Shown here one piece after another: positions 25,494 to 56,555 of a stretch of 62,841 nt of DNA. A program made the translations under genes and the position numbers. The stretch is from the IMG/VR virus record IMGVR_UViG_3300046167_000691, positions 1 through 62,841 of that record. The stretch is one strand, 5' to 3'. The notes beneath the pieces are model-generated. The model ran no database searches and was not told the origin of the DNA. It saw nothing but the letters and a program-made list of their open reading frames with translations. This DNA comes from a virus. Its lineage: Duplodnaviria > Caudoviricetes. How positions within the stretch are numbered: the first letter of the stretch is position 1; each line of letters opens with the position of its first letter.

Positions 25494-25497
25494 TTAC

Positions 25498-28400: not shown

Positions 28401-30183
28401 AACTACATCGTTTTTTGAACCAGTTAATGTGGAAGGAGATGTTTATTCAACGCCTACAACGGCTGAATTAATTTCACAAACAAACGGCAACGGTTGATAG
28501 CGTAGAGTTATTTGAATTGTTTTCAGGGACAGGTTCCAATGCAGGAGAATACAAAATAAGGTATATAGGAGATAATCCAATGGTATTCGGTTCTGACAGT
28601 CGTACATTAGATGTTTATTCGTTTATTATACGAGTCACTACAAGTGACGGTGATGTTAGCGATTCTGACTCTAGCTGGTCAAATAGAAGGTTTTGGTGCT
28701 TTAAAAAATATAGCTCCTACATACACACGAATATCTAACTTTCCCACTACAAAAGATACAAGGATAATTCTTCCTGCTTTAGGTGCTACTGGAAAGATGG
28801 GCAACAGCAAATCCTAAAAAATGGTAGTGGCTACACGGCACAAAATAGATCTCAACTTGAGTATACTATTACCGGAGGCACATACCCAGATAATTGGGAA
28901 ATGGATAAATATAATGGTGAAATTACACAAGCGATTGCAGGTGATGGTAATTTTGAAGGTAATCCAAATGGAACATATACTGTAGACATTACTGTAACAG
29001 ATGCGAATGGCGTTACGTTCCCGTCAACGGGGGTCTAATGATTATAAACAACGTAGTGTAACACGTACTACATCTATAACTATAGGCTATGCAGAGCTTA
29101 ATACAGAATTAAAAAATTCTAACTGTATATTTGATCCCGCCGCAAATACAGCTGGTACAATAAAAAACTACTACTAATGGATCTGGCGGCAAAGTTTCCG
29201 GGATATGGTACATAGCCAATAGTGTGTTAAACACTAGTGATTTTACTGGTATAGGTTCAGGAATAACAAGTATTAATAGATTAGGAACAGGGCCTCACAA
29301 ACAAGGAACAGTAGCCCTTAGTTCTAATTTTAAGCAACTTGCTGATTCAAGTTCTAGTTCTAGCTTTAATTCTGGTTTCAACTAAATATTACTATAGAGT
29401 TCAAGGAAATTCTACCTGGAACCCTGTTTTAAGATTGCAAGAATATAAATCAAGCGGGGTTCACCAATAACATAGGAGCAAGTCAAATAGATACTACCTA
29501 TATGGAACACACCTAATTATGGACTTACTCTTAACATAGCAGGTAACACCGCCTCTAATAATAAATGGTTATCTGACGTTAGAGCTATTAATTATTTAGC
29601 TTTTGCTAATGAGTCTAACGGGCAACCTATAGAATACGCTATTATTATAAAAGATTTAGAAAAAAATCAAGCGGAACTAACGGGCAGAATGCTGTGGTAG
29701 GGTGGGGTACAGTTAGACGATTTACATAATCCAGCTTGTGTACCCTGGCAAGGGCAAAACCGGAGGTAATCAAAGTTCTTATAAATACTTTAGATCTGCG
29801 GAATCAAGCAACACATTGACTACAGATACTATATCTACTAGCAATGGTTTTATATGCTGAGACTCCTTATGGTGAGTATGTGGGTCAGTTTTTTACTGAT
29901 TCAAGTTTATCAACTGTATACAAACCTGCTTCTGATTCTGCAGAATATATAAACTTTAGGCTTGACAGAAGTAATACGCCTAACATAGGAGCGCTAGCTT
30001 GGTCTAATCTTTCTGCTAATGTCGGGTTTTTATCTTTTGCAGCAGGATTTAGTAGCTTAGATGGTTAAAATAATAATAAATTTAACTGATCCAGGAGTTA
30101 ATGCCTCTTGTACTGCTTCTATATTAACCGGAGGAAACCCCGTAAATTATGCAGGTACATCTCGAATAAAAACAGATAATTAG
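25498..30183 (+). CDS. Large tail stabilization/nozzle protein (many frameshifts)
   Basis: FLRSKMNKDLDDR, FWTDNRNQPRK, KFVRFSYRFKYDDNEYS, YQVGFVLADKFGRQS, ESLLDIYWET fragments. Confidence 0.6.
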
Positions 30184-30185
30184 CA

Positions 30186-31776
30186 ATGGCAGCAAATATA
30201 GAACTTAAATACTTTAATACATTCTGGTTAAAAAAAATCAAGACTATAGCTAATGTTGCTCCTTGGCAAAACTGGTAATAACATTTCAAAGTCGATCTGG
30301 TGTTGTTTTTACAGTGTCCCCAGGTGTTACAGAAACGGAAGCTAATGTAGGGCAAGAAATAACTATGAGCTGGACTTTTAAACGGAAACGACTATACGTT
30401 TTCCACTACAATTATTAGCAGAGGGGCTGGAACTGTTACTACTTTTACTGTAGCCGAAGTTCCTTCCGTTCCGGTTACAGCTAATACCCCCATAGTTTTT
30501 TGGTAAGATAATAAATTTTGACAACATACCGCAAGCTTATAGCCCCACCCCTGCAAGTGACTGGCTAATAGAAGAGTCAAGAATACGAGGTGGATATAAT
30601 AATACATCTGTAGATTTTTGGCGTTAAAGCTTATATAGTGGAAGACGAACCTAAACAATCACATAAGTTTAGTGGGTTAATACATTCTGGTATATTTAAT
30701 TCTAGAACTGGTATAAACCAAACTAATCAGTTTAGTGTAGGTGAAGATATAACAAGGACTATAGATCCAGCTAACGGGTCTATACAAAAATTATATGCAG
30801 AAGACACTAACCTTATTATATTTCAAGAAAATAAAGTAAGTAAATCCTTAATTGATAAAGACGCTATATATTCAGCTGAAGGGAAATGCTAGTGTTACTA
30901 GTCGTAACTTAGTTATAGGACAAAATGTAGCGTTTGGAGGAGAGTATGGCATATAGTAAAGATCCAGAATCTTTTGCAGTTAATGGTTACAGAAAATACT
31001 TTACAGATAAAGATCAAAACGTAGTTTGCAGATTATCTATGGATGGCATTACTGTAATATCAAATTATGGAATGACTGATTACTTTAGAGACAAATTATC
31101 TACTTGCTACATCAGGAGGAATTAAAGCAGGTTGGGACGCTCATAATAAGCAATATGTAGTTTCGATTTACATCGGAAGTTTTTAGGTACAAGAGGTTCA
31201 ACAGTTGAAAACAATACTTTAGCTTTTGATGATACCGCAAAAGGGTGGACTAGTTTCTTTGATTATAATCCTAATCAATTAATAAGTTTAAATAATGATT
31301 ATTTTACGGCTAACTCTGGAAAATTATACAAACATTATACATTAGCTTCTAATACAACAGATAGATCTGTGTTTTATGGGATTACATATAATTCCAATGT
31401 AACCTTTGTGTTTAATGGAGCCCCGTCAACAGTTAAAAACTTTCAAACTATAAATTACGAAGGATCTGATGGCTGGCGAATGGAAAGCTTTTCTACCAAT
31501 ACTGATACAGCTTTGCCTGTAACGGAATCGGTATTTGTTACTAGCCTACAACAAATGCAAAACGCTCTGTTAATAAACAGATTTAAAGCTAAAGAAGATA
31601 AATACTATGCAGATATTGTAAACAGTACTCCTTCTCAAAGTGGCGAGGTTGTTTTTGGATCTTCTTCTTCTGGGGTAAAAGGATTTTTTGGAGAAATTAA
31701 AATGGAAATAAATAATAAAAATGCAGGTAAAAGAGAATTATTTGCAGTAAGCACAACTTTTGTGCAATCATCTTAA
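30186..31776 (+). CDS. Tail stabilization protein, second part (frameshifted)
   Basis: SGIFNSRTGINQTNQFS, GSIQKLYAEDTNL, KNFQTINYEGS, ELFAVSTTFVQSS. Confidence 0.6.
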
Positions 31777-31786: not shown

Positions 31787-32251
31787 ATGAATAATGAATT
31801 ATCAATTAATTTTATAAAACAGTTAGAAGTATTACAGAATGTGCTTATAGAAAGCAACGAAGAAGGAGTGTATGGGGATGGTAAAAATTTAGTTAACAAT
31901 GAAGAATTTCCAATAACTAATAATTTTACCAACGGACTGTACATGCGCCAAATGAAAATGAAAGCTGATACCATGGTTATAAGTGCTATACATCATACAA
32001 ATCATTTTTGGTTTTTATTATCTGGTAAAGTTATAGTGCAAGCTGACAATGAAACTGTAGAGCATATAGCTCCATGTTGGTCGTACTCCTTAAAAGGAAC
32101 TAAAAGATTAATTAAGTGTGTAGAGGATTGCGTTTGGATAAATATAATAGCTAATCCTACGGACACAAGAAATATAGAAGAGGTAGAGAATAATTTCTTT
32201 TCCTTTACAATGGAAGAATATAATAAAAAAGAAAAGTTATGGCAGGAGTAG
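31787..32251 (+). CDS. Cupin-like protein
   Basis: GLYMRQM...IHHTNHFWFLLSGKVIV...GTKR. Confidence 0.7.
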   Translation: MNNELSINFIKQLEVLQNVLIESNEEGVYGDGKNLVNNEEFPITNNFTNGLYMRQMKMKADTMVISAIHHTNHFWFLLSGKVIVQADNETVEHIAPCWSYSLKGTKRLIKCVEDCVWINIIANPTDTRNIEEVENNFFSFTMEEYNKKEKLWQE

Positions 32252-33303
32252 TATTAGCCGCCGGAATAGGAGCGGCAACTAGTTTAATCGGCGGATTTAT
32301 TGGAGGCAGAAAGGCTAAAAAAGCAGCAAGGCAAGCTAAAGCCGAAAGAGATAGAATAAATGGTGCAATAAAAGCTTTTGAACAAAACAGACAAGCTGTT
32401 ATTAATCCTTACTCGGATGTTAAGTCTTTAGCCGGTTTAGCAACTGATCTTAGCGGGGAAATGTCTAATCCTTATGCAAACCTAGGGGTTGCGACTAGCG
32501 CTGCTGAAATAAAAATGGAACAAACAGATTTAGCATTAGCTGCAACTTTAGACACTTTACAATCAACGGGAGCAAGTGCAGGAGGAGCAACTGCTTTAGC
32601 TAATGCCGCAGCAAGAAGTAAAAAAGATGTAGCAGCGGACATTGAAAAACAGGAAGCTCAAAACGAAAAGTTATCTGCACAAGGTGAAGCAGAGTTACAA
32701 TCAAAACAATTAGCTGAAAAAGCAAGAATACAAAGTATACAGATATCTGAAGGAGGTAGAGCACAAATGGCACAAGCGCAAGGTAAATCTTTTGAATTCC
32801 AAGCGCAAGAAGGAAGAGATCAAGCTACTCTTGACAGAATGGCGGCTGGGCTTTCGCAATCTAATGCAAACATAGCTAATGCTAATGCGGCACAAGCGGC
32901 TAACACAGCAGCTATGATAGGCGGTGTTGGTGATATTGCTGGAGCGGTGATTGGAGCTGGAGGATTTGGTGGAGGCAACGAAACACCAATAACTTCAGTT
33001 ACACCTCCTGCAGCAACAACTGTGGTACAGGATACGAGTTCAACCCAACCTTCAGGAGTGAGCAACATGGGAAGCATGGGAACAGGTAGTGACAGAAGAT
33101 TAAAAAAGAACATTAAAAAAATAGGTAAATCATCTAACGGATTAAATATATATTCATTTGAATATATAGATAAATCTTACGGAGAAGGCACTTACCAGGG
33201 GGTTATGTCCGATGAAATACCTAAAGACGCAGTAATTAAGGGAGCTGATGGATTTGATAGGGTAGACTATTCTATTATAGACGTTGAATTCAAAAAAATA
33301 TAA
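32239..33303 (+). CDS. Ejection/pilot protein with C-terminal S74-like domain
   Basis: G/A-rich hydrophobic N-terminus, coiled coil, SDRRLKKNIKKIG...YQGVMSDE...VDYS. Confidence 0.7.
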   Translation: MAGVVLAAGIGAATSLIGGFIGGRKAKKAARQAKAERDRINGAIKAFEQNRQAVINPYSDVKSLAGLATDLSGEMSNPYANLGVATSAAEIKMEQTDLALAATLDTLQSTGASAGGATALANAAARSKKDVAADIEKQEAQNEKLSAQGEAELQSKQLAEKARIQSIQISEGGRAQMAQAQGKSFEFQAQEGRDQATLDRMAAGLSQSNANIANANAAQAANTAAMIGGVGDIAGAVIGAGGFGGGNETPITSVTPPAATTVVQDTSSTQPSGVSNMGSMGTGSDRRLKKNIKKIGKSSNGLNIYSFEYIDKSYGEGTYQGVMSDEIPKDAVIKGADGFDRVDYSIIDVEFKKI

Positions 33304-34873: not shown

Positions 34874-37800
34874 ATGTATACATATATCATAGACGATAAA
34901 AAAGTAACATTTAAAAATTGGGACGAAGTCTCTTCCGCTTTAGATGAAGCAGAAAAAAATGGATTAACCGCTGAATATGTTGATTATGAAGAAGGTTTGG
35001 ACGGGCCTAAAACGGAGGAACAAACAAAAGCCGCCGAAGAAAAAAGTATTATACCAAAAGCTCCTTTTCTACCAGATGCTGCAGAGAGTGCGGATGTAGT
35101 GTCGAAGACTCAAGCACAAGATACGGACTCACGATCGGAAGACTCTTCTTCGGGTTCACGATACATAAGATTTAAAAGCGGTACAATAATATACGAGGAT
35201 GACTATGTACAAAACTATGCTGATACGGAAAATTATCCCAAGTCATTTGATGACTACGCTTTAAAATTCGGTGGCAAAGTTCAAAAGGTAGAAGAATCAG
35301 TTGTTGAGGGAGGTGAACTTGATCCCGTTTATATCAGCGCAGGACCTCAATCTTATGTTGCTGAATTAGAAGGACTAAACGAATTCGGAGAAATTACAGA
35401 CGGTCAAGTAACGATAGATTATGATAGCTTAGCAAAAGAAAACGGTTTTGAAAGTGCAGCGGAGGCTTATGCAGAAACCGAGCCAAAAAGAGAAATGCTA
35501 AATGTATTTGAACCTAATAATGTAATTACCGATAGAAAAGGTAATGTAACCACTAGATTCAAATATGTAGAATATGAGGATGATACACCTGAAAAGAAAA
35601 AATATTTACGCGAACAGAAAGAAGCTACAGACTATGCAGTAAAATTAGCTCTTAACAATACCGAATTTTCTACAAATGATATTACTGATGTAAACACCTT
35701 TAATAAAGAAGTTTTTAATCCTGAGTATCTTTCAGAGCAGGCTAAATATTTGGAAAAAGCACTGCCTCAACTTAATTTATATCAAGCAGAGCTTGCGGCT
35801 TCTAATTATAATAATGCTAAGTTGCAACTGCTAAAAAATAAAGAGCTAGACGAGAGTGAAGAAGCTATTAATATTCTGCAAGAAGATAAGAAGTATACAG
35901 CAGTTATGAATCTTTATGAGTCTGAAGCTCTTAATAATTTACCTAAAGCCGGAAAAGAATTAGGTGTTGCGAAAAATAAACTTGAAGAAGCAAAAACTAA
36001 TTTAAAAACAATTGATCCTAACGCGAGGGCTATTGATTATACTACGCAAGTAAGAAAAATTAACGACTATAAAGAACAATTACAAAAAGCTATTGAGGCT
36101 TACAGTAATCAAACGCCTTTTGATTATGATAGTGAGGGTAACTTTAAATTAAAAGATCCAGAGGTTCCTATTATAACAGATCTTGATTATAACATATTAA
36201 CTCCTCAGGAAGTAGAAATTGCTAAAAGTAACGGGCAAACTCTTCTTATTGAAAATGAAAGGTATAAATATAATTTAGATAGAGCTTCGCAATGGAATGA
36301 TCGTGAAACTATAAAAAACAATTTTCTTTTAACTAGCATTGATAATAATAAATACACTGCAAAAGGCAAAGAAATTTATTATATTAAAACTACATCACCA
36401 TTATCAGATCCTCAGTTAGCCGGATTTGCAGATACACTTGAAGAAGATTCACCTACTAATTTGGAATACCTGGGTTACACTAAGTCCGGGGAACGTTTTT
36501 CAAAACGGCGTAAAAAAGATGGAGAGTATAGAGCTTATACGCTTAGAGAAATATCTAATGCTATCAATGAAGGAGATTGGAGTATAGATAGAATTAAATT
36601 TAAAGATGGCAAACCTGAAGGCTTTAACACCGATAGGGACTTTTCTAGGTTTAGTATGAATTATGCTGACACAAAAATGATGCTACCTATAGTTACTGAT
36701 ATGTACGTGCTAGGGCTGGATCCGGGTACACAAGGTGAAGATACCGCTATAAATATGGCTGGAGCTTTTACTGATGAACTATTAGAAAATTCTTGGGGTT
36801 TATTTGGAGATGGATTGGAAACTATAAGAGAAAAGAAAGATGCTCAAAGATTTACACTTGGAAAAATAGGGTTGCCAGAAACAGAGTCAATGAAAAAATC
36901 TTTTGAAAGAGGATTTATGATGAGACTTAGCGAGAGTGCAGGGGCATTCGTGCCTGTTTTAGGGGAATTTAGTGTTGCTACCGCTTTAACAGGAGGGGTT
37001 GGCAATGTATTAGGAACTGGTAGATTTATAAAAACAGCATTTTCAGGGGGTAAAAATTTAGGTAAAGCGGCGCAGGGTGCTTGGAAATCTAGCTATTGGG
37101 GGAAAAATCCTAGAGCTGCTAAATTTGCTGCTCACATGTTAAAATTTGGTGAAGAGGAAATAAAGTTTTCAATGGTAGCCCGGGGCGAGAACACTCTTGG
37201 CTCAGGTGGCGCTTTTTACTTAGGCGGTCTACTAACGCAAAGACTTGTTCCATTTAGATTTAATACAAAATATGATTGGGCTAATCCTGCTAATAAATTC
37301 TTAGAAAAGATTGTTCTAACCGGAGTGGGAGGTGCTAGTTCTTCAGAACTTTCTCATTTATCAGAAGCTTTTTATAAAGAATTCACAGGGGATAAATCTC
37401 TTAAAACTTCTATGGACGAATTTTGGGGAGACAACTCAGAAACTATGACTAGATGGTCTATTAACTTAATGCAATTTTCGTTTTTAGGTGGTACTAAAAT
37501 GAAAACATGGGATTGGGTAGCTGAGTCAACTGTTCAAAAGCTTAACAATAAATTTGTTAGACAAAGAAATAAAGCTTTAAGTGAAGGTAAAGATGTTGAA
37601 AAACTAAACCAAAAAATATACGAAACGGATAAAATTTTAGAATTAGGTAAAACTGAAGTTCAAAAATCTGATGTGATGGCGTTGCAAGAGGAAATTAATA
37701 AAATTGAAAAAGACGTAAATTCAGGTAAACTAAGTTATTCAGAGCGCCAAGACGCTATGAACAGAAGAATTGCTAATGAAAAGCAAATAGAAAAACTTCA

Positions 37801-40800
37801 GACAGAATTTAAAAATAAGCAACCATATTTTAAAAAGGAATTTGGAGTAAATCTTGTATTTGGAGAAGTTCCGGGTTCCAGAGGTGAGCTGAGCCCAGAT
37901 GGCAAAACCCTTACTATAGATAAAAATAAATTAAGCGAGGGTGTATTACAGCATGAGATGGGACATTGGGCTATGATAATGTCAGGCCGAAAAAATGGGT
38001 TAGTTGATAAAATGTATGAATCTATTTATAGCAGAGTTGAGGATGCTATTAAAGCTACTCAACTTAGAGGGGATCTACAATTAGCAGAAACTAATGATGC
38101 TCAAGGCAATCCTCGTAAAACAAGTACCTTGCAACAAGTATTGGAGGCTAAATATGGTAAAAACAATAAAGTTCTTAAAGAAGAATTTATAATGTTTTCT
38201 ATAGAGTTTATGAAAAATAATAAATCTTTTTCTAACGCTTTACTAAATAGAGGTGTAATTCAGTCTGTATATAAAGATTTAGCTGTGTTTGCTAATAATA
38301 AAGGTATTAATTTTGGTAAAAAACCTATTAACCTAAATAATGGAAGTAAAGATAATAGAGCTGATGCCGTAATAGACTTATTATACAAAATGGCTAATGC
38401 TAAGGGGCAAGGATATAAAGAAAACGTAAAAGCTTTAGGTGGAGTTGCGGTAGATAAAAATGGAGTGTATAGCACGGCTTCAGGAGAGAAGCTTTTGGAT
38501 CAAAAGCAATTAAAATCTCGTGAAATACAAGAAGAGCAAAGCCCGGAATATAGAAAGTTAAAAGCAAAAAGGGACGCTAATAATCAGAAAATTATAGATT
38601 TTTACGAAGAAAATAAAACCACACAATCTCGTGAAACTCTAGCGGAGGATTTAAATTTTCAATTTTTAGATCATGTTAAATTCCATGCTCGTAAAGCTCT
38701 TACTTTAGCTAATCAAGGTAAATTTCCTACTGAGTCTGAAATATACGAAGCAGCAACCGCTTATATATACGGGCTTCCTACAATGGGCCAGCCCGGAGGT
38801 AAAACTTTAGCAGAAAAAGCTATCATGCCTTTTTTTAGAGGGCAAGATATAATAGCCGCTATTAAAAGAGATAACCTTTCTGTAGAGCAAACTATTGGTT
38901 TACTAAAACAAGGTAGTATTCCTACTGGAGCGAAGACTTATGAGGATGCAGCTAAGGATCTTCACGATATGGCAACAGGTAAAAAACCGGAAGCTAGTAT
39001 AATTACCTATGTTAATAATGCTATTAAAGTTCAGCTTTTACCTGATGTTATAAAAAATAAGATACAGGAAGATCAATATGTAACTACTGCAGACACTCAG
39101 CAGTTGGAATATTTTGCTGAACAAATGAGTGAATACGGAGAAGGGGAAGTGTTTTCAGAAAAAGATGTCAAAGACTTTAAAGAAGCTGCTACGGTTGATA
39201 AAAAAGATGAGGGTTACGATGGATCCGGAGCTGCTAAGCGTAGAACCCGTGATTCTGCAATGAACATACTTAATATTAAACCTGAGACGCGAAAGAAGGT
39301 TAAAGATATAGTAGTAGATAAAATTGAAAACGAGCCAATAGAAGGCTTAGATGCTTTTAGCGTGGGTACTATGAACTTTGGAAAAGGAAAAGTATTTGAT
39401 ATAGAAGTGCCTACCGAGCCTAATCGAGCTAACGCGTTCGGTCCTGATGGTGTTAAAATAGAATTTAAAGGCATAAGAAAACCAGCAGATATATTTGAAA
39501 AGATTATAAAAATTATAAAAAAGGATCTTACTAACGATATAATAGATCAGACTAAAACCCCTGAGCAAGTAACAGAAGCTAAGGCTGAGATGGAAAGAAT
39601 TTTAAATTTAAAATTTAAAAGAGATGTTGGCTATGAAAAAGAACCTACTAGATTATTTAGAGTTGGGTTAGAAAGAAAAGCAGAAGCTGATTTGTATCAA
39701 GACATAAGGGCTGAGATGGGAGAAGTAGGGTCTGAAGCGAATCTTAGATGGCTAGCTAAGGCTAGAGCCTTAATGGATAACTACATTGATTTAAGCCAAA
39801 TAACAAAACGATTTGATTTAGATGTACTCTACGAAAAAGTATACAAGCTAGATGCACAAGGCGAACCAGTATTAAATGCTAAAGGTCAAAAAGTGCAAGC
39901 AAGAAGTGGTGAGCGTGCTTCAGGAAATTTACTATTTAAAAAGAGAGCTATATCAGCAAAAGAATATTTTGATTATTTTAAAGACAACGTCGTTAGGCAA
40001 GAATCTTTAGCTAAAGCATTAGCTAGAGAATTTGCGTTTGATCAAATAGTGGATGTTCTTAAATCTGATACAATTAAAAAAATTGCTCTTAAGGAAGGCC
40101 AAGAAATTACTACTATTGACATGGAAAAAGGATCTGAAATTTTCAGGGAAGACATGTTCAAACATATTAGAAGAGGTAGCAATATAGAAAAACTTTATAG
40201 TAAAGAAATTCAAGCTAGCGCGGAAAAAAGGCAAATATCCGAAAAAGACTTTAAGAAAGGACTTAGAGATTCTATTTTTCAACTTAATAATGCAGGTTGG
40301 GAATCCCTAGATTATGTACAAAAAAGTTTTATTAATGATGTTATTCGTGCAGAAATGGTAGGAGAGGTTGCTAATCTACGTGCTACTTTAAAGAAAGACG
40401 CACAAGATAGGCTAATTAAAGATAAAGATAAAGTTGATAATCATTTTGAAAATTTAAATAAAGAAGAATTTGAAAAAAGACAGAAAGGTGTTATGTATGG
40501 AATTAAAACACTTTTTGGGGAAATATTTAATGAAACATTAAATAAAGTTGCTAAAAGTCGCGGAGGCAATATTTCTACTGGAGAATTTTTAAATTCTAGA
40601 ATTTTAGGTGCAAATGATATAAAAGTAGGTTTAAATTTAGGTCTTAAAAATTTATATGAAATTGAAGGAAGAGAGGGGAAAAATTATGGAATTAAAAATG
40701 CTGATGAATTATATAAATCATCTAGCAAATCCGATGCTGCAGAATATTTTGAGCCTGGAACATTAGAAAACTTAAAAACTAATACAGAGCTTAATAATTT

Positions 40801-43800
40801 ATTAAACGATGCCAACACAAAAATAAAGGAAGCAGATAAACTAGCTAAAACTTGGTATGAAAAATCCGGAATGAAGTATGAAGTTTCTAAAGTAACTTTG
40901 GACCAAAACTCTGAAGTAGCAAGAACTGAATTATTTCGTGAGTCAGATAAACTTAGAATAGAACAACCTAAGTTATCTACCTCAAAACACGCTAACATTC
41001 TTTTTAAAAGAATGACAGCAAAAATTGGTAAAGAAGGTGTTAACGCATTGATAGCAGAAAGTAATGCATTACAGGCTACCCAAAGGGCGGTATTATATAC
41101 TATGGGCTTATTAGGGGAAAATGTAAAAGGCAAAAAAGGAAATGATGCAATAAAAACGATGCTTTACATGATGTCAGAAAATAATCTGCAGGGTTCAAGA
41201 AAAATGGCTCCTGAGATATGGTATGATTTTAATACTATTTATGAAGCCAGCAGTCGTAATAAACAAGGAAAAATTACTAAAAAAACTATTAATAAAATTG
41301 ACAAACCTATAGGTAATGAACATCTGTTACCTAGAGCTGCTTATTGGAGAAAAGTGTTCCAAGCATATAACAGTAAAAAACTTACAGATAACTCCGTGTT
41401 AGATGCTTTAGTAGGTGGGTACGAAAGTATGATAAGTAAAAAGGAGTTTCAAAATTTATCGGATGCTCTTACAATACCTAATACATGGACAGGCAAAACT
41501 TTAATAAAAGATGCTCCGGTGCCTTTTTTAGGTAAATTACTAATAGCTACTACTCCTGGTAAAAGTTTAAATAAAGCCGCTTGGAAAAGAGTATTAGGTG
41601 ATAATGGCGGTATAAATATGAAAGATCTTAATAGATTAAATAATATAAGAAAACTTGATGGAACCACCGCTTTACAGCAATGGGGTAAGGATTTGATAGC
41701 TAATTTTGAAAGTAGCTTAGTTAAGCAATCTATAGATGCCGCATATTCTAACAAACTTTTAGCTAAAAACTTGAGATTGCCAGAAGGCGCTAATGGAAAA
41801 CAAATGGTTGGAGCGCTTAGGCCATCATTTAAATCCAAAGAAATTCAGGAGCAAGGAGAAAGCTACAAAGAGTATAAAGAAAGAAAACAAACGCCTAAGG
41901 GTAAGCTATTAGAAAAAGAGTTAGCTACTATGATAGAAAGAAAAGGAGGTGCTCCTGCAGAAGCTACAGTGTCTGATTCAAAAGCTTTTATGGAAGGTAA
42001 AAAAAGGTGGGATGATTTATTTATTCCTTCTAATTCTATGGATTTTCGGGATTTTCTTTACAAAGGTTATGGAAAAGGCAAGCAAGGAGATGCTGATATG
42101 GCGTTTATGGAGGAACATGTTTTAAGACCATTAACTCGAGCTGAAAATGCACTTAGTGTTTATAGAATGAAATTAGCCGAAGACTATGCAGCTTTAGAAA
42201 CTCAAATTAAAGCAATGGGTGAAACTAAACCAGAAAAAGAAGCAGCAAAGCGAGTTGAAAAACTTGGTTACAATATTGATCAAGCAGTCCGTGTGTATAT
42301 ATGGCAATCGTTAGCTATGGATATACCGGGAATATCATTAGCTGAAAAATCTCAGTTAACGGGTGCAGTAATGTCTTCTCCAAAATTAAGAGCCTATGCA
42401 AAAGGAATAATGGATATAACTAAAACTAAAGAAAAATATCCTGAACCTAGTGCTAACTGGTTTAGAAGTAATGTACAATATGATTTATTCACACACGCAA
42501 CAGATGGTGTACGTGCGGATTTCTTATATGAATGGCAAGAGAATGTTGACGCCATGTTTACTAAAGAAAATTTAAATAAATTAGAATCTAGATTTGGTAG
42601 TAAGTATAGATATAACTTAGAGCAAATGCTTACGCGTATAGCAAAAGGAAAGTCAAGACCGGAAAGTACTAATGATTCTTTTAATACTACTCTTAATTAT
42701 ATTAATGGATCAGTTGCAACTATTATGTTTTTAAACATGAGATCCGCTGCTCTGCAAACTATATCTGCGGCTAACTATGTAAATTGGACAGACAACAACC
42801 CTATAGAAATAGCTAAAGTTATAAGTAAAAATCCTAAACTTTTTATACAAACAGCTAAAAAAATATGGTCTTCCGATGCATTACGTGATAGACGTACTGG
42901 ATTAAAAATTAATGTTCAGGAAGCTGAAATGGCTAAAGCTATGAAGCAAGGAGGAAGAACTGCCGCACAAGAAATATGGGATCAAATGATCAAAATAGGA
43001 TTTAAGCCTACACAGATGGCGGATAGTTTTGCTATTGTTATGGGTGGAACACCTTTCTATATGAACAGAATGAAAACGTATGAGAAAGAAGGTTTGAGTA
43101 AGAATGAAGCCGCTGACAAAGCTTGGGAAGATTTTCTAGACAAAACACAAGAAGGACAGCAATCGTCTCAAATGGATCGTATAAGCAATATACAGACAGG
43201 TTTAATGGGAAGATTGGTTTTTTCATTTAATAATACCCCCTTCCAAATGTCTAGACTACAAAAGAAAGCGTTTTTGGATTTAAAAAATAATAGAGGAGAC
43301 AAGAAAACTAATGTATCTAGAATGGCATATTATGGTCTTGTACAATCTTCATTATTTTATGGCTTACAGCAAGCATTTTACAGTACTGTAATGACCGATG
43401 ACGAAGAGCTGAGTGAAAAAGAGAAAGCTGAAAAGTACACTATGTATGAAAAGCGACTAGATAAACTAGGTAGAAGTGTGTGGCAAGGTATATTAACAGG
43501 GTCAGGATTACCAGGCAAGCTTAGCGTAATGGGATATAATACCGCATTAGAGGCAGCTACTCAATATAAAAAAGGATATCAAGGGTCTGATTTTTTCCCT
43601 ATATTATCTCAAATATTATCTGTATCCCCTACGCTTGGAAGTAAAGTAAATAGATTAGGTAGAAACTGGAAAAGTCTTATCATGGCTGAAAAAACAAAAA
43701 AAGGCATAGAATTTGGAAATACATTTAATACTTTAGATCCTCGTAATCCTAATAATAAAGCTTACATATCTATGGTTGGTACAATTACTAATATACCTTT

Positions 43801-44359
43801 AGATCGTATTGTGCAAAAAATGGAAAATTTATCGAATGCTTTTGATGCACAAAATGAGTTATGGCAACGTGCTGCAATGCTTATGGGAACTCCTAAATAT
43901 CAATTACAAACTAAAGAGCAAAACGACAGAGACAGACAGAACAAACTAGATACTTTTTACTTGAATAATACTTCTAAAGGGCAAAGGGATATTGATGCTA
44001 TTGAAAGCTTAAATATTAAAGAACAAAAAGATTTTATGAAAGCTTTAGGGGGAACTAAAGAATGGATTAAAACACTAGACACCCAATCTGAGCGCACAAG
44101 TACTTTGTTATATTTAGCAAAAGAAGCGGGTATTGATATTGAAAAGCAATATGAAAAATACGAATATAAAGAAATAGAAAGAAGCGAAGAATACAAAGAA
44201 ATACAAGAATGGGGCAGAGACAAGCAAATAGATTGGATAAAAGCCAATGGTATTAATCCAGATGCAATGAAATTTGTTAGAAAAAGTGAAGCTGATAGAA
44301 TATATATAATACAAGAATTAATGAAAAATAATAAAAACAAACAAAACTCTTTAAAATAA
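34874..44359 (+). CDS. Giant (3161 aa) internal virion polyvalent protein with zincin HEMGH, sigma-2-like and EHxxP nuclease-like segments
   Basis: Uninterrupted ORF at the end of the ejection cluster; motifs read by eye. Confidence 0.75.
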   Translation: MYTYIIDDKKVTFKNWDEVSSALDEAEKNGLTAEYVDYEEGLDGPKTEEQTKAAEEKSIIPKAPFLPDAAESADVVSKTQAQDTDSRSEDSSSGSRYIRFKSGTIIYEDDYVQNYADTENYPKSFDDYALKFGGKVQKVEESVVEGGELDPVYISAGPQSYVAELEGLNEFGEITDGQVTIDYDSLAKENGFESAAEAYAETEPKREMLNVFEPNNVITDRKGNVTTRFKYVEYEDDTPEKKKYLREQKEATDYAVKLALNNTEFSTNDITDVNTFNKEVFNPEYLSEQAKYLEKALPQLNLYQAELAASNYNNAKLQLLKNKELDESEEAINILQEDKKYTAVMNLYESEALNNLPKAGKELGVAKNKLEEAKTNLKTIDPNARAIDYTTQVRKINDYKEQLQKAIEAYSNQTPFDYDSEGNFKLKDPEVPIITDLDYNILTPQEVEIAKSNGQTLLIENERYKYNLDRASQWNDRETIKNNFLLTSIDNNKYTAKGKEIYYIKTTSPLSDPQLAGFADTLEEDSPTNLEYLGYTKSGERFSKRRKKDGEYRAYTLREISNAINEGDWSIDRIKFKDGKPEGFNTDRDFSRFSMNYADTKMMLPIVTDMYVLGLDPGTQGEDTAINMAGAFTDELLENSWGLFGDGLETIREKKDAQRFTLGKIGLPETESMKKSFERGFMMRLSESAGAFVPVLGEFSVATALTGGVGNVLGTGRFIKTAFSGGKNLGKAAQGAWKSSYWGKNPRAAKFAAHMLKFGEEEIKFSMVARGENTLGSGGAFYLGGLLTQRLVPFRFNTKYDWANPANKFLEKIVLTGVGGASSSELSHLSEAFYKEFTGDKSLKTSMDEFWGDNSETMTRWSINLMQFSFLGGTKMKTWDWVAESTVQKLNNKFVRQRNKALSEGKDVEKLNQKIYETDKILELGKTEVQKSDVMALQEEINKIEKDVNSGKLSYSERQDAMNRRIANEKQIEKLQTEFKNKQPYFKKEFGVNLVFGEVPGSRGELSPDGKTLTIDKNKLSEGVLQHEMGHWAMIMSGRKNGLVDKMYESIYSRVEDAIKATQLRGDLQLAETNDAQGNPRKTSTLQQVLEAKYGKNNKVLKEEFIMFSIEFMKNNKSFSNALLNRGVIQSVYKDLAVFANNKGINFGKKPINLNNGSKDNRADAVIDLLYKMANAKGQGYKENVKALGGVAVDKNGVYSTASGEKLLDQKQLKSREIQEEQSPEYRKLKAKRDANNQKIIDFYEENKTTQSRETLAEDLNFQFLDHVKFHARKALTLANQGKFPTESEIYEAATAYIYGLPTMGQPGGKTLAEKAIMPFFRGQDIIAAIKRDNLSVEQTIGLLKQGSIPTGAKTYEDAAKDLHDMATGKKPEASIITYVNNAIKVQLLPDVIKNKIQEDQYVTTADTQQLEYFAEQMSEYGEGEVFSEKDVKDFKEAATVDKKDEGYDGSGAAKRRTRDSAMNILNIKPETRKKVKDIVVDKIENEPIEGLDAFSVGTMNFGKGKVFDIEVPTEPNRANAFGPDGVKIEFKGIRKPADIFEKIIKIIKKDLTNDIIDQTKTPEQVTEAKAEMERILNLKFKRDVGYEKEPTRLFRVGLERKAEADLYQDIRAEMGEVGSEANLRWLAKARALMDNYIDLSQITKRFDLDVLYEKVYKLDAQGEPVLNAKGQKVQARSGERASGNLLFKKRAISAKEYFDYFKDNVVRQESLAKALAREFAFDQIVDVLKSDTIKKIALKEGQEITTIDMEKGSEIFREDMFKHIRRGSNIEKLYSKEIQASAEKRQISEKDFKKGLRDSIFQLNNAGWESLDYVQKSFINDVIRAEMVGEVANLRATLKKDAQDRLIKDKDKVDNHFENLNKEEFEKRQKGVMYGIKTLFGEIFNETLNKVAKSRGGNISTGEFLNSRILGANDIKVGLNLGLKNLYEIEGREGKNYGIKNADELYKSSSKSDAAEYFEPGTLENLKTNTELNNLLNDANTKIKEADKLAKTWYEKSGMKYEVSKVTLDQNSEVARTELFRESDKLRIEQPKLSTSKHANILFKRMTAKIGKEGVNALIAESNALQATQRAVLYTMGLLGENVKGKKGNDAIKTMLYMMSENNLQGSRKMAPEIWYDFNTIYEASSRNKQGKITKKTINKIDKPIGNEHLLPRAAYWRKVFQAYNSKKLTDNSVLDALVGGYESMISKKEFQNLSDALTIPNTWTGKTLIKDAPVPFLGKLLIATTPGKSLNKAAWKRVLGDNGGINMKDLNRLNNIRKLDGTTALQQWGKDLIANFESSLVKQSIDAAYSNKLLAKNLRLPEGANGKQMVGALRPSFKSKEIQEQGESYKEYKERKQTPKGKLLEKELATMIERKGGAPAEATVSDSKAFMEGKKRWDDLFIPSNSMDFRDFLYKGYGKGKQGDADMAFMEEHVLRPLTRAENALSVYRMKLAEDYAALETQIKAMGETKPEKEAAKRVEKLGYNIDQAVRVYIWQSLAMDIPGISLAEKSQLTGAVMSSPKLRAYAKGIMDITKTKEKYPEPSANWFRSNVQYDLFTHATDGVRADFLYEWQENVDAMFTKENLNKLESRFGSKYRYNLEQMLTRIAKGKSRPESTNDSFNTTLNYINGSVATIMFLNMRSAALQTISAANYVNWTDNNPIEIAKVISKNPKLFIQTAKKIWSSDALRDRRTGLKINVQEAEMAKAMKQGGRTAAQEIWDQMIKIGFKPTQMADSFAIVMGGTPFYMNRMKTYEKEGLSKNEAADKAWEDFLDKTQEGQQSSQMDRISNIQTGLMGRLVFSFNNTPFQMSRLQKKAFLDLKNNRGDKKTNVSRMAYYGLVQSSLFYGLQQAFYSTVMTDDEELSEKEKAEKYTMYEKRLDKLGRSVWQGILTGSGLPGKLSVMGYNTALEAATQYKKGYQGSDFFPILSQILSVSPTLGSKVNRLGRNWKSLIMAEKTKKGIEFGNTFNTLDPRNPNNKAYISMVGTITNIPLDRIVQKMENLSNAFDAQNELWQRAAMLMGTPKYQLQTKEQNDRDRQNKLDTFYLNNTSKGQRDIDAIESLNIKEQKDFMKALGGTKEWIKTLDTQSERTSTLLYLAKEAGIDIEKQYEKYEYKEIERSEEYKEIQEWGRDKQIDWIKANGINPDAMKFVRKSEADRIYIIQELMKNNKNKQNSLK

Positions 44360-52133: not shown

Positions 52134-52156
52134 TATTATATTCTGGTAGTCGTTTT
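52134..52156 (-). promoter_or_regulatory. Early-class promoter (drives ssb/replication genes)
   Basis: AAAACGAC-N8-TATAAT. Confidence 0.7.
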
Positions 52157-52158
52157 TG

Positions 52159-53480: not shown

Positions 53481-53517
53481 TTATATAAGGTTTTTATTTG
53501 CGAACTTTCTATATATA

Positions 53518-53546
53518 TATAATTACACGTTTTTAAAGAAAGCTAC
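53518..53546 (-). promoter_or_regulatory. Middle/late-class promoter upstream of ERF
   Basis: GTAGCTTT-N9-CGTGTAATTATA on the - strand. Confidence 0.75.
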
Positions 53547-53566
53547 AGGTTATTTTTAATTATAAC

Positions 53567-54331: not shown

Positions 54332-54589
54332 TTATTGTATTATTATGGATAGCAGTACCATCCCTGTTAGTGTAAATAACATGATCCATTGCCATGCTAT
54401 TATGTTTTTTTCGGTAGGATTTTTTTTACTCCACCACTTTTTTATTCTCTTCATCTGTTTCAGTTTTACATAAACAATATCCTTTGTCCAGCGTGCAATC
54501 GCATAGCCTCCATTGCATATTCTTATTTATTATATTTTCTTGTTTCATACGGTTAAACGTTAAAGTTTCGATGTATTTTATAATTTTAC

Positions 54590-54619
54590 GTAGTTTTGTC
54601 GTAAAAATACGTGATTATA
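54590..54619 (+). promoter_or_regulatory. Middle/late-class promoter, antisense to the early arm
   Basis: GTAGTTTT...ACGTGATTATA (22-nt spacing). Confidence 0.5.
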
Positions 54620-56274: not shown

Positions 56275-56289
56275 AGTTTTAGTTTATAT

Positions 56290-56554: not shown

Positions 56555-56555
56555 A

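What the first reader, a model, noticed from the sequence alone, without database searches (positions are those of the whole stretch)
34874..44359. Giant virion protein looks like a self-cleaving polyprotein that may inject a sigma factor
Seen: a zincin HEMGH motif at aa ~1027 (37952-37966) with a downstream EE, and a thrice-repeated motif LKSREIQ (aa 1213, 38510), LYSKEIQ (aa 1774, 40193) and FKSKEIQ (aa 2319, 41828) that divides the protein into modules, two of them ~550 aa. The first module contains FLDHVKFHARKAL...EIYEAATAYIY...LAEKAIMPF-[insert]-ASIITYVNNAIKVQL, which resembles sigma-70 region 2.1-2.4. Known: crAss-like and N4 phages inject their own RNAP, and polyvalent virion proteins carry zincin domains. 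Here no RNAP motif (DxDGD/DFDID) is visible, and the early promoters do not match the Bacteroidota housekeeping consensus (TTTG/TAnnTTTG). Inference: a pre-packaged sigma-like module, released by the zincin, redirects host RNAP core to early promoters, and the free-standing sigma gene then takes over.
Basis: partly seen in the sequence, partly recalled or inferred. Interest (0 to 1): 0.9.

Follow-up and report, generated by a model that had tools for sequence, protein, structure and literature searches.

The report
Giant phage cargo protein, not sigma

Summary
The ORF (34874-44359, +, 3161 aa, 358 kDa), HEMGH at aa 1027 and the three S[KR]EIQ motifs (aa 1215, 1776, 2321) are all real. Composition predicts 0.006 such motifs, and no other reading frame of the window holds one.

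In relatives the strict motif is lost, but a Ser-centred motif (hydrophobic-x-S-x-x-hydrophobic) stays at all three module borders. It changes in concert within each lineage (0 of 20000 permutations reach the observed similarity). The sites lie in low-confidence linkers between unrelated modules. All 121 family proteins examined keep [HQ]ExxH.

My best reading is a crAss-style "polyvalent" virion cargo protein cut into about 137, 64, 61 and 96 kDa pieces, most simply by its own zincin-like domain. Cleavage is inferred, not shown.

The sigma idea found no support in Pfam scans (20 module homologues), PDB profiles, hhalign against the phage's own sigma, Foldseek (PDB, BFVD) or a profile search of 1.84 billion proteins. 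No DxDxD RNA polymerase motif exists either.

The idea of a zincin-bearing virion polyprotein is already in print. New here are the candidate site code, a conserved 700-aa all-helical C-terminal core of unknown fold, and the absence of a polymerase. What reads the 17 AAAACGAC-N8-TATAAT early promoters remains open.

The parts
34874..44359 (+). Giant ORF of 3161 aa and 358 kDa with no cysteine. It is probably a virion cargo or ejection protein of the 'polyvalent' kind.
   Evidence: ORF and translation. Mass. Zero Cys. No Pfam, PHROG or NCBIfam family. It lies at the end of the structural arm, after a crAss muzzle C-terminal domain and two cargo-sized ORFs.
34874..35158 (+). N-terminal ~95 aa, conserved even where the next ~400 aa are not. 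It may be an incorporation signal (inference).
   Evidence: BLAST of aa 1-640 against the family: many distant members match only residues 1-90/99 at 36-48% identity.
36902..37483 (+). Conserved Gly-rich, weakly hydrophobic region (aa 677-870). It holds the protein's most hydrophobic segment, aa 691-713.
   Evidence: Invariant columns F677-G872. Kyte-Doolittle peak of 1.42 at aa 691-709. 47 of 122 family proteins match aa 641-900.
37841..38308 (+). Zincin-like domain (aa ~990-1145). HEMGH is at nt 37952-37966 and the candidate third ligand EE at nt 38180-38185.
   Evidence: The AlphaFold2 model shows three short strands, then the HExxH helix (model residues 122-138), then a later helix carrying E1103/E1104. 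E1028, H1031, E1103 and E1104 are invariant. [HQ]ExxH is present in 121 of 121 family proteins. The only Foldseek echoes are weak ones to minimal gluzincins, 4qhj_A and 4jiu, at E about 3. No Pfam zincin model matches.
38510..38530 (+). Site 1, LKSREIQ (aa 1213-1219), a candidate processing site.
   Evidence: Position. K1214 is invariant in 17 homologues. Lineage variants are KSEDIE, KSANME, RSMDME and KSRELR. It lies at the end of a stretch with pLDDT below 50, model residues 242-318.
38531..40192 (+). Module 2 (aa 1220-1773): a helical half (the supposed sigma region), a disordered loop, then an alpha/beta half.
   Evidence: Model secondary structure and pLDDT of 83-90 through most of the alpha/beta half. 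No sigma or other family detected.
39611..40153 (+). Approximately aa 1580-1760: a mobile ~170-aa sub-domain of unknown function, shared with many other giant phage proteins and some short stand-alone proteins.
   Evidence: Most of the 117 hits of the module-2 profile in 1.84 billion proteins match only profile positions ~365-545. Twenty hits were scanned against Pfam: none matches a sigma family, and the few matches do not explain this sub-domain. Coordinates are approximate.
40193..40213 (+). Site 2, LYSKEIQ (aa 1774-1780), a candidate processing site.
   Evidence: Position. Relatives carry LYSEEIV, MKSADMA, KYSLEIE, KYSKDFE and DASKELR. pLDDT is below 50 at model residues 869-880. A relative 94% identical overall (P0004) already reads LYSKEIL here.
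40214..41827 (+). Module 3 (aa 1781-2318), basic (pI 9.6 for aa 1779-2323), with an invariant N-E-H triad at aa 2148-2150. Function unknown.
   Evidence: Invariant columns. No Pfam or PDB match. Not homologous to module 2: hhalign probability 0.2%.
41828..41848 (+). Site 3, FKSKEIQ (aa 2319-2325), a candidate processing site just before the conserved core.
   Evidence: Position. Relatives carry LKSEEIE, KSADME, KSKDME and RSVDLT, and more distant ones a [FA]-S-K type motif 8-12 aa before the core. The first 20 residues of the core model have pLDDT about 51.
41849..44053 (+). Module 4 (aa 2326-3060): the conserved all-alpha core of the family, with no known fold or family.
   Evidence: 120 of 122 family proteins match it at 32-96% identity. 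214 further proteins of 371-1582 aa match at E <= 1e-5. The model has only helices, mean pLDDT 71.4. No PDB match by profile or fold.
44054..44356 (+). C-terminal tail (aa 3061-3161). The homologous tails of some relatives carry tandem HeH (helix-extension-helix) motifs.
   Evidence: YqbF_HeH scores above Pfam's cut-off in 2 of 10 tails scanned (L016 at 1.2e-9, L033 at 4.3e-11), weakly in one (L029 at 0.005), and not in the window's own tail. It is also found in P0029.

Best explanation
The gene encodes a giant virion-packaged cargo or ejection protein of the 'polyvalent protein' kind. It sits where crAss-like phages keep their injected giant proteins.

Its layout is:
- an N-terminal piece (aa 1-1217) holding a conserved leader, a Gly-rich weakly hydrophobic region and a zincin-like [HQ]ExxH domain;
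- two unrelated modules of unknown function (about 561 and 545 aa);
- a strongly conserved all-helical core of about 700 aa, followed by a tail that in some relatives carries HeH motifs.

The three S[KR]EIQ repeats are the local form of a family-wide Ser-centred linker motif, hydrophobic-x-S-x-x-hydrophobic. I read them as processing sites. Cleavage at them, for example before the conserved hydrophobic residue, would release pieces of about 137, 64, 61 and 96 kDa. It could happen in the head or after ejection.

The most economical protease is the protein's own zincin-like domain.

Shown: the anatomy, the conservation, the linker location, the concerted evolution of the sites, and the universal coupling with [HQ]ExxH.

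Inferred: virion packaging (from gene order), cleavage itself, which bond is cut, and which protease cuts.

None of the modules is a detectable sigma factor or RNA polymerase.
For: Position and context:
- TerL, portal and capsid genes lie upstream.
- A crAss muzzle C-terminal domain lies at 31369-31776 (Pfam E = 9.6e-10).
- A PHROG 'DNA ejection protein' ORF and a 528-aa ORF come directly before the giant gene.
- Gene order is similar in Cellulophaga phage phi14:2, where virion structural and tail proteins precede the virion proteins gp67, gp66 and gp65.

Family:
- 200 proteins match at E <= 0.001 among those of 1738-5532 aa.
- Relatives swap the middle modules. A Zeta-toxin-type kinase and a weak LPD14 match are seen by Pfam. 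A stretch that I read as HAD-like was recognised by eye only.

Zincin-like domain:
- HExxH lies on a helix after three strands, and E1103/E1104 are invariant on a later helix.
- Of 121 family proteins, 105 have HExxH and 16 have QExxH; none has neither.

Sites:
- They are kept at all three borders in 20 aligned lineages.
- Within-protein similarity of site 1 and site 2 is 2.64 of 6 positions against 1.0 for shuffled partners (0 of 20000 permutations reach it).
- For the 5 proteins with three clear sites, 1 of 14400 arrangements reaches the observed value.
- The modules they separate are not paralogues.
- The sites lie in stretches with pLDDT below about 50.
- No other ORF of the window has the motif.
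- In distant members the motif before the core recurs elsewhere in the same protein. The anchored scan gives 18 of 113 at p <= 0.05 and the anchor-free scan 10 of 73 (binomial 1e-5 and 0.003).

Precedent in print:
- Zincin-like domains were proposed to process polyvalent proteins (PMC5512222, passages read).
- Fused crAss virion polyproteins are 'likely cleaved', and gp65 has a Zincin-like domain (bioRxiv 10.1101/2020.03.07.982082, passages read).
- The 2811-aa polyvalent gp47 of phi24B was detected in virions (bioRxiv 10.64898/2026.04.10.717836, passages read).
Against: - No experiment or proteomic datum shows that this protein is in the virion or is cut.
- The strict motif is not conserved. 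A 94%-identical relative already reads LYSKEIL at site 2, and only a loose Ser-x-x-hydrophobic core is general.
- The three QExxH lineages in the 20-sequence alignment (L015, L016, L017) lack the first zinc-binding histidine yet keep, and co-evolve, their sites. QExxH is seen in 16 of 121 family proteins. So either Gln substitutes as a ligand or another protease acts.
- No curated zincin profile matches, and Foldseek support for the fold is weak (E about 3).
- In the family-wide tests most proteins show no significant recurrence: 95 of 113 and 63 of 73 are not significant.
- The motif before the core could simply be the first element of that domain.
- Site extraction used a regular expression that requires S-x-x-hydrophobic. 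Those two positions are therefore not independent evidence, although one of them (the hydrophobic position) was still counted in the permutation test.
- Both structure models are of moderate confidence (mean pLDDT 70.9 and 71.4).
Confidence: 0.5

Rival explanations
1. The motifs are processing sites, but they are cut in trans by another phage protease or a host protease. The [HQ]ExxH domain then does something else, for example digesting peptidoglycan or host proteins after ejection.
For: The three QExxH lineages in the 20-sequence alignment keep co-evolving sites. The literature also proposes a cell-wall role for such domains (passages read). In the window, S-[KR]-E fits the S/A/G-x-E type sites that I recall for phiKZ-like prohead proteases. 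That is recalled and comes from no call.
Against: No protease family was found in the seven structural-arm ORFs scanned with Pfam, and the ORF between portal and capsid has no match. No other ORF of the window carries the motif, so a general maturation protease is unlikely. The residue before the hydrophobic position varies across lineages (E, D, N, S, G, T), so this is not a fixed x-E site. Lineage-specific drift of the sites argues against a shared host protease.
Confidence: 0.17
2. The motifs are not cleaved. They are short linear docking or modification motifs (Ser-centred, for example phosphorylation sites or contact points for the portal, the scaffold or the phage chaperonin), or helix-capping elements at module starts. 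The protein would then act as a single 358-kDa chain.
For: N4-type virion polymerases and some plasmid polyvalent proteins are transferred full-length (PMC5512222, passages read). The motif before the core is conserved across the whole family like a domain edge. Some relatives carry kinase domains. The phage encodes a GroEL-like protein. DSSP assigns a helix over site 1 at low confidence.
Against: Recurrence of the same lineage-specific motif at borders of unrelated modules, with concerted change, calls for a common reader of all sites. Together with the linker location and the invariable presence of a protease-like domain, a protease is the simplest such reader.
Confidence: 0.2
3. One reading: aa 1213-1774 is a sigma-2-like module that is packaged, released by the zincin, and directs host core RNA polymerase to the AAAACGAC-N8-TATAAT early promoters.
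For: The 17 early promoter-like sites are real and strikingly uniform. They have a TATAAT box rather than the TAnnTTTG that I recall for Bacteroidota, which is recalled and comes from no call. So some dedicated reader is plausible. The first ~180 aa of module 2 are helical. Cargo proteins of crAss-like phages do include transcription machinery.
Against: No Sigma70 Pfam match in the module or in any of 19 homologues at E <= 0.5, whereas the phage's own sigma is detected, just below Pfam's cut-offs. PDB profile searches at E <= 10 return no sigma chain. hhalign against the phage sigma gives 0.3%. Foldseek gives 0 hits at E <= 0.001 in PDB and BFVD. The protein-atlas feature search gives no usable hit. 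In the database-wide profile search the helical half matches about ten proteins; five of those not already known as family giants were scanned and none has a sigma domain. No region-4-like domain is present.
Confidence: 0.03
4. The giant protein hides a very divergent virion RNA polymerase, as in crAss-like and N4-like phages, in module 2, 3 or 4.
For: It sits in a similar place to phi14:2 gp65-67. The early promoters are unlike what I recall for the host type (the host consensus is recalled). Module 3 was not folded, and modules 2 and 4 match no known fold, so nothing is excluded by fold.
Against: No DxDxD or DFDxD motif in the protein. hhalign of all four module profiles against phi14:2 gp65-gp69 gives at most 3.2% probability, at the zincin motif only. 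Module 4 is predicted to have no strands, so no double-psi barrels. No polymerase family was found by Pfam, PHROGs or NCBIfam. The phage has its own sigma, which implies use of the host core enzyme.
Confidence: 0.05

Closest known systems
Large polyvalent proteins of phages and conjugative elements with zincin-like metallopeptidase (MPTase) domains (Iyer et al. 2017, PMC5512222; passages read)
   Same: A giant multi-domain phage protein with an HExxH domain plus a downstream Glu helix. Relatives shuffle effector modules (Zeta-toxin-type kinase, weak LPD14). Processing by the zincin-like domain was already predicted for this class.
   Different: No Pfam LPD or MPTase model matches this protein. 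The conserved 700-aa helical core and modules 2 and 3 belong to no described family. The passages I read name no cleavage-site motif, whereas here a candidate site code is visible.
crAss-like phage virion transcription module: phi14:2 gp65 (Zincin-like), gp66 (RNA polymerase, DFDID) and gp67, fused into one polyprotein in some crassviruses (bioRxiv 10.1101/2020.03.07.982082; passages read)
   Same: A similar place in the genome, at the end of the virion-protein genes. A zincin-like domain. Giant size. The idea that a polyprotein is cut into components.
   Different: No DFDxD motif and no detectable sequence similarity to gp65, gp66 or gp67. The genome is ~60 kb and carries its own sigma factor. 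The zincin-like part lies towards the N-terminus, whereas gp65 is the last of the three genes.
Stx phage phi24B gp47, a 2811-aa polyvalent protein (LPD5, LPD1, LPD38, MuF-C metallopeptidase) abundant in virions and proposed to be an ejection protein (bioRxiv 10.64898/2026.04.10.717836; passages read)
   Same: A single giant metallopeptidase-bearing protein of a short-tailed phage, packed in the head. Experimental precedent that such proteins are virion cargo.
   Different: Different domain families. No sequence comparison was made here. No processing sites are described in the passages I read.
Phage N4 virion RNA polymerase, a ~3500-aa injected protein fused to MPTase domains according to PMC5512222
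   Same: A giant injected protein with a zincin-like domain.
   Different: N4's protein is a single-subunit polymerase. Here no polymerase family or motif is found.
Head-protein processing by prohead proteases at S/A/G-x-E (phiKZ-like) or L/I-x-E (T4) sites (recalled; from no call)
   Same: Short linear sites. S-[KR]-E in the window fits the pattern. Internal head proteins are cut into pieces.
   Different: The residue at the 'E' position is not conserved in relatives. No prohead protease gene was found and no other virion ORF carries the motif.

Membership tests
Sigma-70 family (region 2 / region 4) | Match to the Sigma70_r2 profile (and r4) | tested here: not met
   The whole protein at E <= 1 shows no sigma family. 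Module 2 alone at E <= 0.1 shows none. None of the 20 module-2 homologues matches at E <= 0.5. The phage's own sigma (53567-54331, -) does match r2 (6.9e-5) and r4 (1.3e-4), both just below Pfam's cut-offs, in the same search.
Sigma-70 family (region 2 / region 4) | Sequence-profile similarity to solved sigma factors or to a bona fide sigma | tested here: not met
   PDB profile searches with A2 and A5 at E <= 10 list no sigma chain. hhalign of A2 against the phage sigma gives probability 0.3%. The profile search of 1.84 billion proteins gives 117 hits; 20 were scanned and none has a sigma domain.
Sigma-70 family (region 2 / region 4) | Sigma-2 helical fold | tested here: not met
   Foldseek of the aa 901-1780 model gives 0 matches at E <= 0.001 in PDB and BFVD, and no sigma among the 48 and 50 rows shown. 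The model is of moderate confidence, so this is not absolute.
Sigma-70 family (region 2 / region 4) | Binding to the beta-prime clamp helices of core RNA polymerase | not tested
Zincin-like metallopeptidase (gluzincin / MPTase type) | HExxH on a helix, conserved in relatives | tested here: met
   HEMGH at aa 1027 lies within model helix 122-138. E1028 and H1031 are invariant. 105 of 121 relatives have HExxH and 16 of 121 have QExxH.
Zincin-like metallopeptidase (gluzincin / MPTase type) | Third metal ligand (Glu) on a following helix | tested here: inconclusive
   E1103/E1104 are invariant and lie on model helix 201-215.
Zincin-like metallopeptidase (gluzincin / MPTase type) | Three-stranded sheet preceding the active-site helix; fold match to known zincins | tested here: inconclusive
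   Strands at model residues 93-96, 104-106 and 112-115 precede the helix. Foldseek shows only weak echoes: selecase 4qhj_A (E 3.3, TM 0.40 on the target) and abylysin 4jiu (E 3.6, probability 0.47).
Zincin-like metallopeptidase (gluzincin / MPTase type) | Match to a curated peptidase family profile | tested here: not met
   No Pfam, PHROG or NCBIfam peptidase family matches. hhalign aligns the HExxH region with that of phi14:2 gp65 at only 3.2% probability.
Zincin-like metallopeptidase (gluzincin / MPTase type) | Peptidase activity / self-cleavage | not testable with these tools
   Needs expression of the wild type and E1028A.
Large polyvalent proteins (Iyer et al. 2017) | Very large phage-encoded protein that combines many unrelated domains, with domain shuffling among relatives | tested here: met
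   The modules are unrelated to each other. Relatives share the core but differ in the upstream modules: a Zeta_toxin/AAA_33 kinase and a weak LPD14 match by Pfam, and a HAD-like stretch recognised by eye only.
Large polyvalent proteins (Iyer et al. 2017) | Delivery with the DNA (virion packaging) | not testable with these tools
   Only gene order supports it.
crAss-like virion RNA polymerase polyprotein | DFDxD catalytic motif of two-barrel polymerases | tested here: not met
   No D-x-D-x-D anywhere in the 3161 aa. phi14:2 gp66 shows DFDID in the same kind of scan.
crAss-like virion RNA polymerase polyprotein | Sequence similarity to gp65, gp66 or gp67 | tested here: not met
   hhalign of profiles A2-A5 against gp65-gp69 gives a best probability of 3.2%. 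No PHROG match.
crAss-like virion RNA polymerase polyprotein | Position after the tail and cargo genes | tested here: met
   crAss_MUZ_C lies at 31369-31776, then ORFs of 154, 354 and 528 aa, then the giant gene. The phi14:2 order is shown.

The most novel reading that the evidence does not exclude
The Ser-centred linker motif is the substrate code of a self-processing zincin-like domain in a family of several hundred uncharacterised giant cargo proteins of marine phages. If so, module borders could be read directly from sequence. In addition, one of the released pieces (module 2, module 3 or the conserved helical core) would be a transcription factor or polymerase of a new kind that reads the 17 uniform AAAACGAC-N8-TATAAT early promoters. 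That would replace the two-barrel virion polymerase of true crassviruses.
Probability: 0.08. Interest if true: 0.85.

Novelty: new variant of a known kind. Interest (0 to 1): 0.45.

Why it matters
Giant virion cargo proteins are common in phages of Bacteroidota and in marine viromes, and almost nothing is known about how they are organised or matured. This family has no Pfam, PHROG or PDB relative, yet it has hundreds of members in metagenomes.

A short motif that marks module borders and co-evolves within each protein gives a concrete, cheap experimental handle on the long-standing prediction that zincin-like domains process polyvalent proteins. N-terminomics and a single point mutant would test it.

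The case also poses a clear open question. This phage has crAss-like tail and cargo gene order and non-host-like early promoters, but no recognisable virion polymerase or packaged sigma. How its early genes are read is therefore unknown.

The specific claim that made the finding look spectacular, an injected sigma, does not hold up.

Tried and rejected
Sigma-70 reading: rejected.

Hidden two-barrel polymerase: no motif and no similarity to phi14:2 gp65-69.

Tandem duplication as the source of the repeats: rejected, because modules 2 and 3 are unrelated (hhalign 0.2%).

General prohead-protease sites: unlikely, because no other frame of the window carries the motif and no protease gene was found in the structural ORFs scanned.

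Integral-membrane reading of the core: not supported. Only weak hydrophobic peaks are seen, and the Foldseek echoes to transporters have E >= 0.45 and TM about 0.1.

Searches that gave nothing:
- tblastn of aa 901-3161 against 50,697 phage records.
- PDB by single sequence and by profile.
- Protein atlas for module 2 (no usable hit) and module 3 (best score 0.76, unnamed viral clusters, leads only).
- NCBIfam.
- BLASTP against the syntenic giants of MW202828.1 and Maribacter phage Panino. hhalign of the core profile gives 47.7% probability and E = 1.9e-4 with the C-terminus of the MW202828.1 giant, and nothing with Panino's.

Shorter proteins with the core on long contigs mostly still carry upstream domains, so they give no clean natural split at the site.

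Complex prediction of the zincin-like domain (aa 950-1145, with Zn) and the site-1 linker (aa 1190-1245): no verdict, median score 0.01 against a mark of 0.32. I do not use it either way.

Supplementary files of papers were not requested. The virion mass-spectrometry tables of the crAss001 and phi14:2 papers, which I did not see, could show whether related giant proteins are cut. Papers were read as search listings and retrieved passages only, never as whole texts.

Full report
**The object.** Window 34874-44359 (+) is one open frame of 3161 codons. It encodes a 358-kDa protein without a single cysteine. The start codon lies four bases after the stop of the preceding 528-aa ORF.

- HEMGH at aa 1027 (nt 37952).
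- LKSREIQ, LYSKEIQ and FKSKEIQ at aa 1213, 1774 and 2319.
- The four peptide strings at aa 1264-1388.

From the protein's composition, 0.006 occurrences of S[KR]EIQ are expected. Three or more has a Poisson probability of about 4e-8, although the pattern was chosen after seeing it. A six-frame scan of all 62.8 kb finds the strict motif only at these three places.

**Context.** The window is a phage genome.
- Large terminase, portal and major capsid protein lie upstream.
- Replication genes and a free-standing sigma factor (53567-54331, -) lie on the other strand.
- ORF 31369-31776 carries the C-terminal domain of the crassvirus muzzle protein (Pfam PF25729, E = 9.6e-10).
- It is followed by ORFs of 154, 354 and 528 aa (the 354-aa ORF matches the PHROG 'DNA ejection protein') and then by the giant gene.
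- Gene order is broadly similar in Cellulophaga phage phi14:2, where virion structural and tail proteins precede the three giant virion proteins gp67, gp66 and gp65. In crAss001, mass spectrometry found cargo proteins gp45 and gp46 and the giants gp47, gp49 and gp50 in the virion (PMC10172136, passages read).
- The nearest named relatives by DNA are an uncultured podovirus (MW202828.1), Maribacter phage Panino and Flavobacterium phages. The first two have a giant gene at the syntenic place, of 3859 and 1829 aa.

Virion packaging of the present protein is therefore an inference from gene order. It is not shown.

**Family.** No Pfam, PHROG or NCBIfam family matches the protein, and no phage record in INPHARED matches it by tblastn.

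The large metagenomic protein collection holds 200 relatives of 1738-5532 aa at E <= 0.001. Module-wise BLAST against the 122 proteins held at that point gave these numbers of matches:

| Region | Proteins matched (of 122) |
|---|---|
| aa 1-640 | 33 |
| aa 641-900 | 47 |
| aa 901-1212 | 24 |
| aa 1213-1774 | 52 |
| aa 1775-2319 | 31 |
| aa 2320-3060 | 120 |
| Tail | 25 |

So the C-terminal ~700 aa are the conserved core, at 32-96% identity, and the parts in front of it vary. Relatives carry other modules there, such as Zeta-toxin-type kinases and a weak LPD14 match. A further 214 proteins of 371-1582 aa match the core at E <= 1e-5. This is the behaviour of the 'polyvalent proteins' of Iyer et al. 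(PMC5512222, passages read).

**The zincin-like domain.** In 17 full-length homologues E1028, H1031, E1103 and E1104 are invariant.

An AlphaFold2 model of aa 901-1780 was built from a 20-sequence alignment and has mean pLDDT 70.9. It shows three short strands, then the helix that carries HExxH, then a later helix that carries E1103/E1104. This is the topology described for zincin-like domains in the passages I read of PMC5512222.

Of 121 family proteins, 105 have HExxH and 16 have only QExxH at the equivalent place; none has neither.

Support from known structures is weak. Foldseek gives only echoes to the minimal gluzincins selecase and abylysin at E about 3, and no curated peptidase profile matches. 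I therefore call it zincin-like, not a proven zincin.

**The repeats.** Alignments of 18 and of 20 homologues show that the strict S[KR]EIQ is not conserved. A 94%-identical relative already has LYSKEIL at site 2.

A Ser-centred motif nevertheless persists at each of the three borders. Automatic extraction of the nearest S-x-x-hydrophobic near the aligned columns gives, for example:

| Protein | Site 1 | Site 2 | Site 3 |
|---|---|---|---|
| Window | KSREIQ | YSKEIQ | KSKEIQ |
| L007 | KSEDIE | YSEEIV | KSEEIE |
| L009 | KSANME | KSADMA | KSADME |
| L015 | RSMDME | YSKDFE | KSKDME |
| L016 | KSRELR | ASKELR | RSVDLT |

The sites of one protein resemble each other more than they resemble the sites of other proteins.
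- For 11 lineages, site 1 and site 2 share 2.64 of 6 scored positions, against 1.0 when partners are shuffled. None of 20000 shuffles reaches the observed value.
- For the five proteins with three unambiguous sites, 1 of 14400 arrangements reaches it.

The modules on either side are unrelated (hhalign 0.2%), so duplication does not explain the repeats.

The sites sit in or at the edge of low-confidence stretches of the models:
- Site 1 lies at the end of model residues 242-318, which have pLDDT below 50.
- Site 2 lies at residues 869-880, also below 50.
- Site 3 lies at the start of the core model, where pLDDT is about 51.

They also lie beside indel-rich alignment regions.

In distant family members a motif of the type hydrophobic-x-[F/A]-S-K lies 8-12 residues before the core. 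It often recurs elsewhere in the same protein, for example four related copies in P0123 and P0093 and three in P0050.

Two family-wide tests are positive but modest. In both, most proteins show nothing significant.
- Anchored test: 18 of 113 proteins at p <= 0.05.
- Anchor-free test: 10 of 73 non-redundant proteins at p <= 0.05, with Ser in both members of the best pair in 9 of those 10 (binomial 1.3e-5 and 0.003).

**Reading of the sites.** A short motif that marks the borders of unrelated modules, lies in flexible linkers, drifts in concert within a lineage, and always travels with a protease-like domain is best explained as a set of recognition sites for that domain.

A conserved hydrophobic residue three positions after the Ser would suit the S1' pocket preference that I recall for thermolysin-type zincins. 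This is recalled and comes from no call.

Cutting before that residue would give pieces of 137.1, 63.7, 61.2 and 96.1 kDa.

Evidence against, or limiting, this reading:
- No cleavage has been observed.
- The three QExxH lineages in the 20-sequence alignment keep and co-evolve their sites. Either Gln can replace the first His, or another protease acts.
- The motif before the core may partly be a domain edge.
- The regular expression used for extraction fixes two of the seven positions.
- The variants of the two inner residues of [HQ]ExxH track the site classes. HEMGH goes with S-x-E-I, HEIDH with S-A-[ND]-M, QELTH with S-x-D-[MF] and QEIGH with S-x-E-L. This is confounded by phylogeny and I give it no weight.

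The idea itself is not new. Processing of polyvalent proteins by their zincin-like domains was proposed in 2017. Fused crAss virion polyproteins were described as 'likely cleaved', with a Zincin-like domain in gp65 (bioRxiv 10.1101/2020.03.07.982082, passages read). My searches for 'polyprotein, crAss-like, zincin' (1 paper) and for 'ejection protein, metallopeptidase, autoproteolysis, bacteriophage, virion' (4 papers) turned up no description of a site motif. These searches cover only the held open-access library.

**The sigma claim.** Module 2 (aa 1213-1774) consists of a helical half (aa ~1224-1398), a disordered loop, and a well-predicted alpha/beta half. Every test for sigma was negative:
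- No Sigma70 family in the whole protein at E <= 1, in the module at E <= 0.1, or in any of 20 homologous modules at E <= 0.5. The phage's own sigma is picked up in the same search, just below Pfam's cut-offs.
- Profile searches of all PDB sequences at E <= 10 list no sigma chain.
- hhalign against the phage sigma gives 0.3%.
- Foldseek gives no hit at E <= 0.001 in PDB or BFVD and no sigma in the rows listed.
- The protein atlas gives no usable hit.
- A profile search of 1.84 billion representative proteins gives 117 hits. Most are giant proteins, and most match only the last ~170 aa of the module, which is thus a mobile domain of unknown function. The helical half matches about ten proteins; four are family giants and five of the others were scanned.
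- Twenty hits, including 14 of the 18 shorter than 400 aa and five that overlap the helical half, have no sigma domain.

**No polymerase either.** There is no DxDxD motif. There is no similarity of any module profile to phi14:2 gp65-gp69 beyond a 3.2% alignment of the two HExxH regions. The core is predicted to be purely helical.

The 17 AAAACGAC-N8-TATAAT sites noted earlier in this scan (e1-6306608) are real. The question of what reads them is open. I keep a small probability that one of the unknown modules does.

**The core and tail.** The model of aa 2320-3161 (39-sequence alignment, mean pLDDT 71.4) is all-alpha. It matches nothing in the PDB by profile or by fold. It is not markedly hydrophobic. 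The tails of some relatives carry tandem HeH motifs: 2 of 10 tails score above Pfam's cut-off, and the window's own tail does not. A role in encapsidation, DNA escort or the ejection conduit is a guess.

**Verdict.** The polyprotein-with-zincin reading is reasonable, was already anticipated in print, and gains a new and testable detail, a co-evolving site motif. The injected-sigma reading is not supported.

Noticed in passing
window 24657-31773 (+): The tail genes upstream look broken. Homologues of a 1439-aa ORF and of the 534-aa muzzle-like ORF are intact in the close relative L004. In the window they are spread over all three frames with at least 14 frame changes, and DNA identity drops to 71% with 109 gap openings. 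The flanks, by contrast, are 84-96% identical. This may be an assembly artefact in a hypervariable host-recognition region, or a defective genome.
   Followed up: partly
window 31369-31776 (+): Crassvirus muzzle protein C-terminal domain (PF25729, E = 9.6e-10) in a ~60-kb phage with its own sigma factor and no recognisable virion polymerase. This is a crAss-like tail on a smaller, differently transcribed genome.
   Followed up: partly
window 315-2353 and 52135-62340 (-): Seventeen copies of AAAACGAC-N8-TATAAT at up to 1 mismatch, all on the minus strand, against 0.08 expected. The factor that reads them is unidentified.
   Followed up: partly
window 34874-44359 (+): There is no cysteine in the 3161 residues. 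This would suit a protein that has to unfold and pass through the tail (speculation).
   Followed up: no
window 39611-40153 (+), approximate: A ~170-aa domain at the end of module 2 is shared by most of the 117 proteins found in 1.84 billion, among them stand-alone proteins of 143-312 aa. Pfam explains none of them. It is an undescribed mobile domain of giant phage proteins.
   Followed up: partly
window 32239-33303 (+): This 354-aa ORF matches both the PHROG 'DNA ejection protein' (1.4e-11) and the Peptidase_S74 intramolecular chaperone domain of tail spikes (7e-6). It may be a fibre-like protein rather than cargo.
   Followed up: no
window 7405-8943 (+): The phage encodes a GroEL-like chaperonin (PHROG E = 9e-130). 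Maribacter phage Panino has an annotated GroES next to its terminase gene.
   Followed up: no
L001 741-12320 (MW202828.1) and L002 13229-18718 (PP540027.1): The syntenic giant genes of these two public records are annotated 'reticulocyte binding/rhoptry protein' and 'tRNA methyltransferase'. The first is probably a spurious name. Its C-terminus aligns weakly with the conserved core (hhalign 47.7%, E = 1.9e-4) and it has two HEFGH motifs.
   Followed up: partly
family proteins P0015-P0020, P0043-P0049, P0051-P0053: QExxH replaces HExxH in 16 of 121 family proteins from several lineages, always with the Glu and the second His kept. This looks like a selected variant of the metal site rather than decay.
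   Followed up: partly
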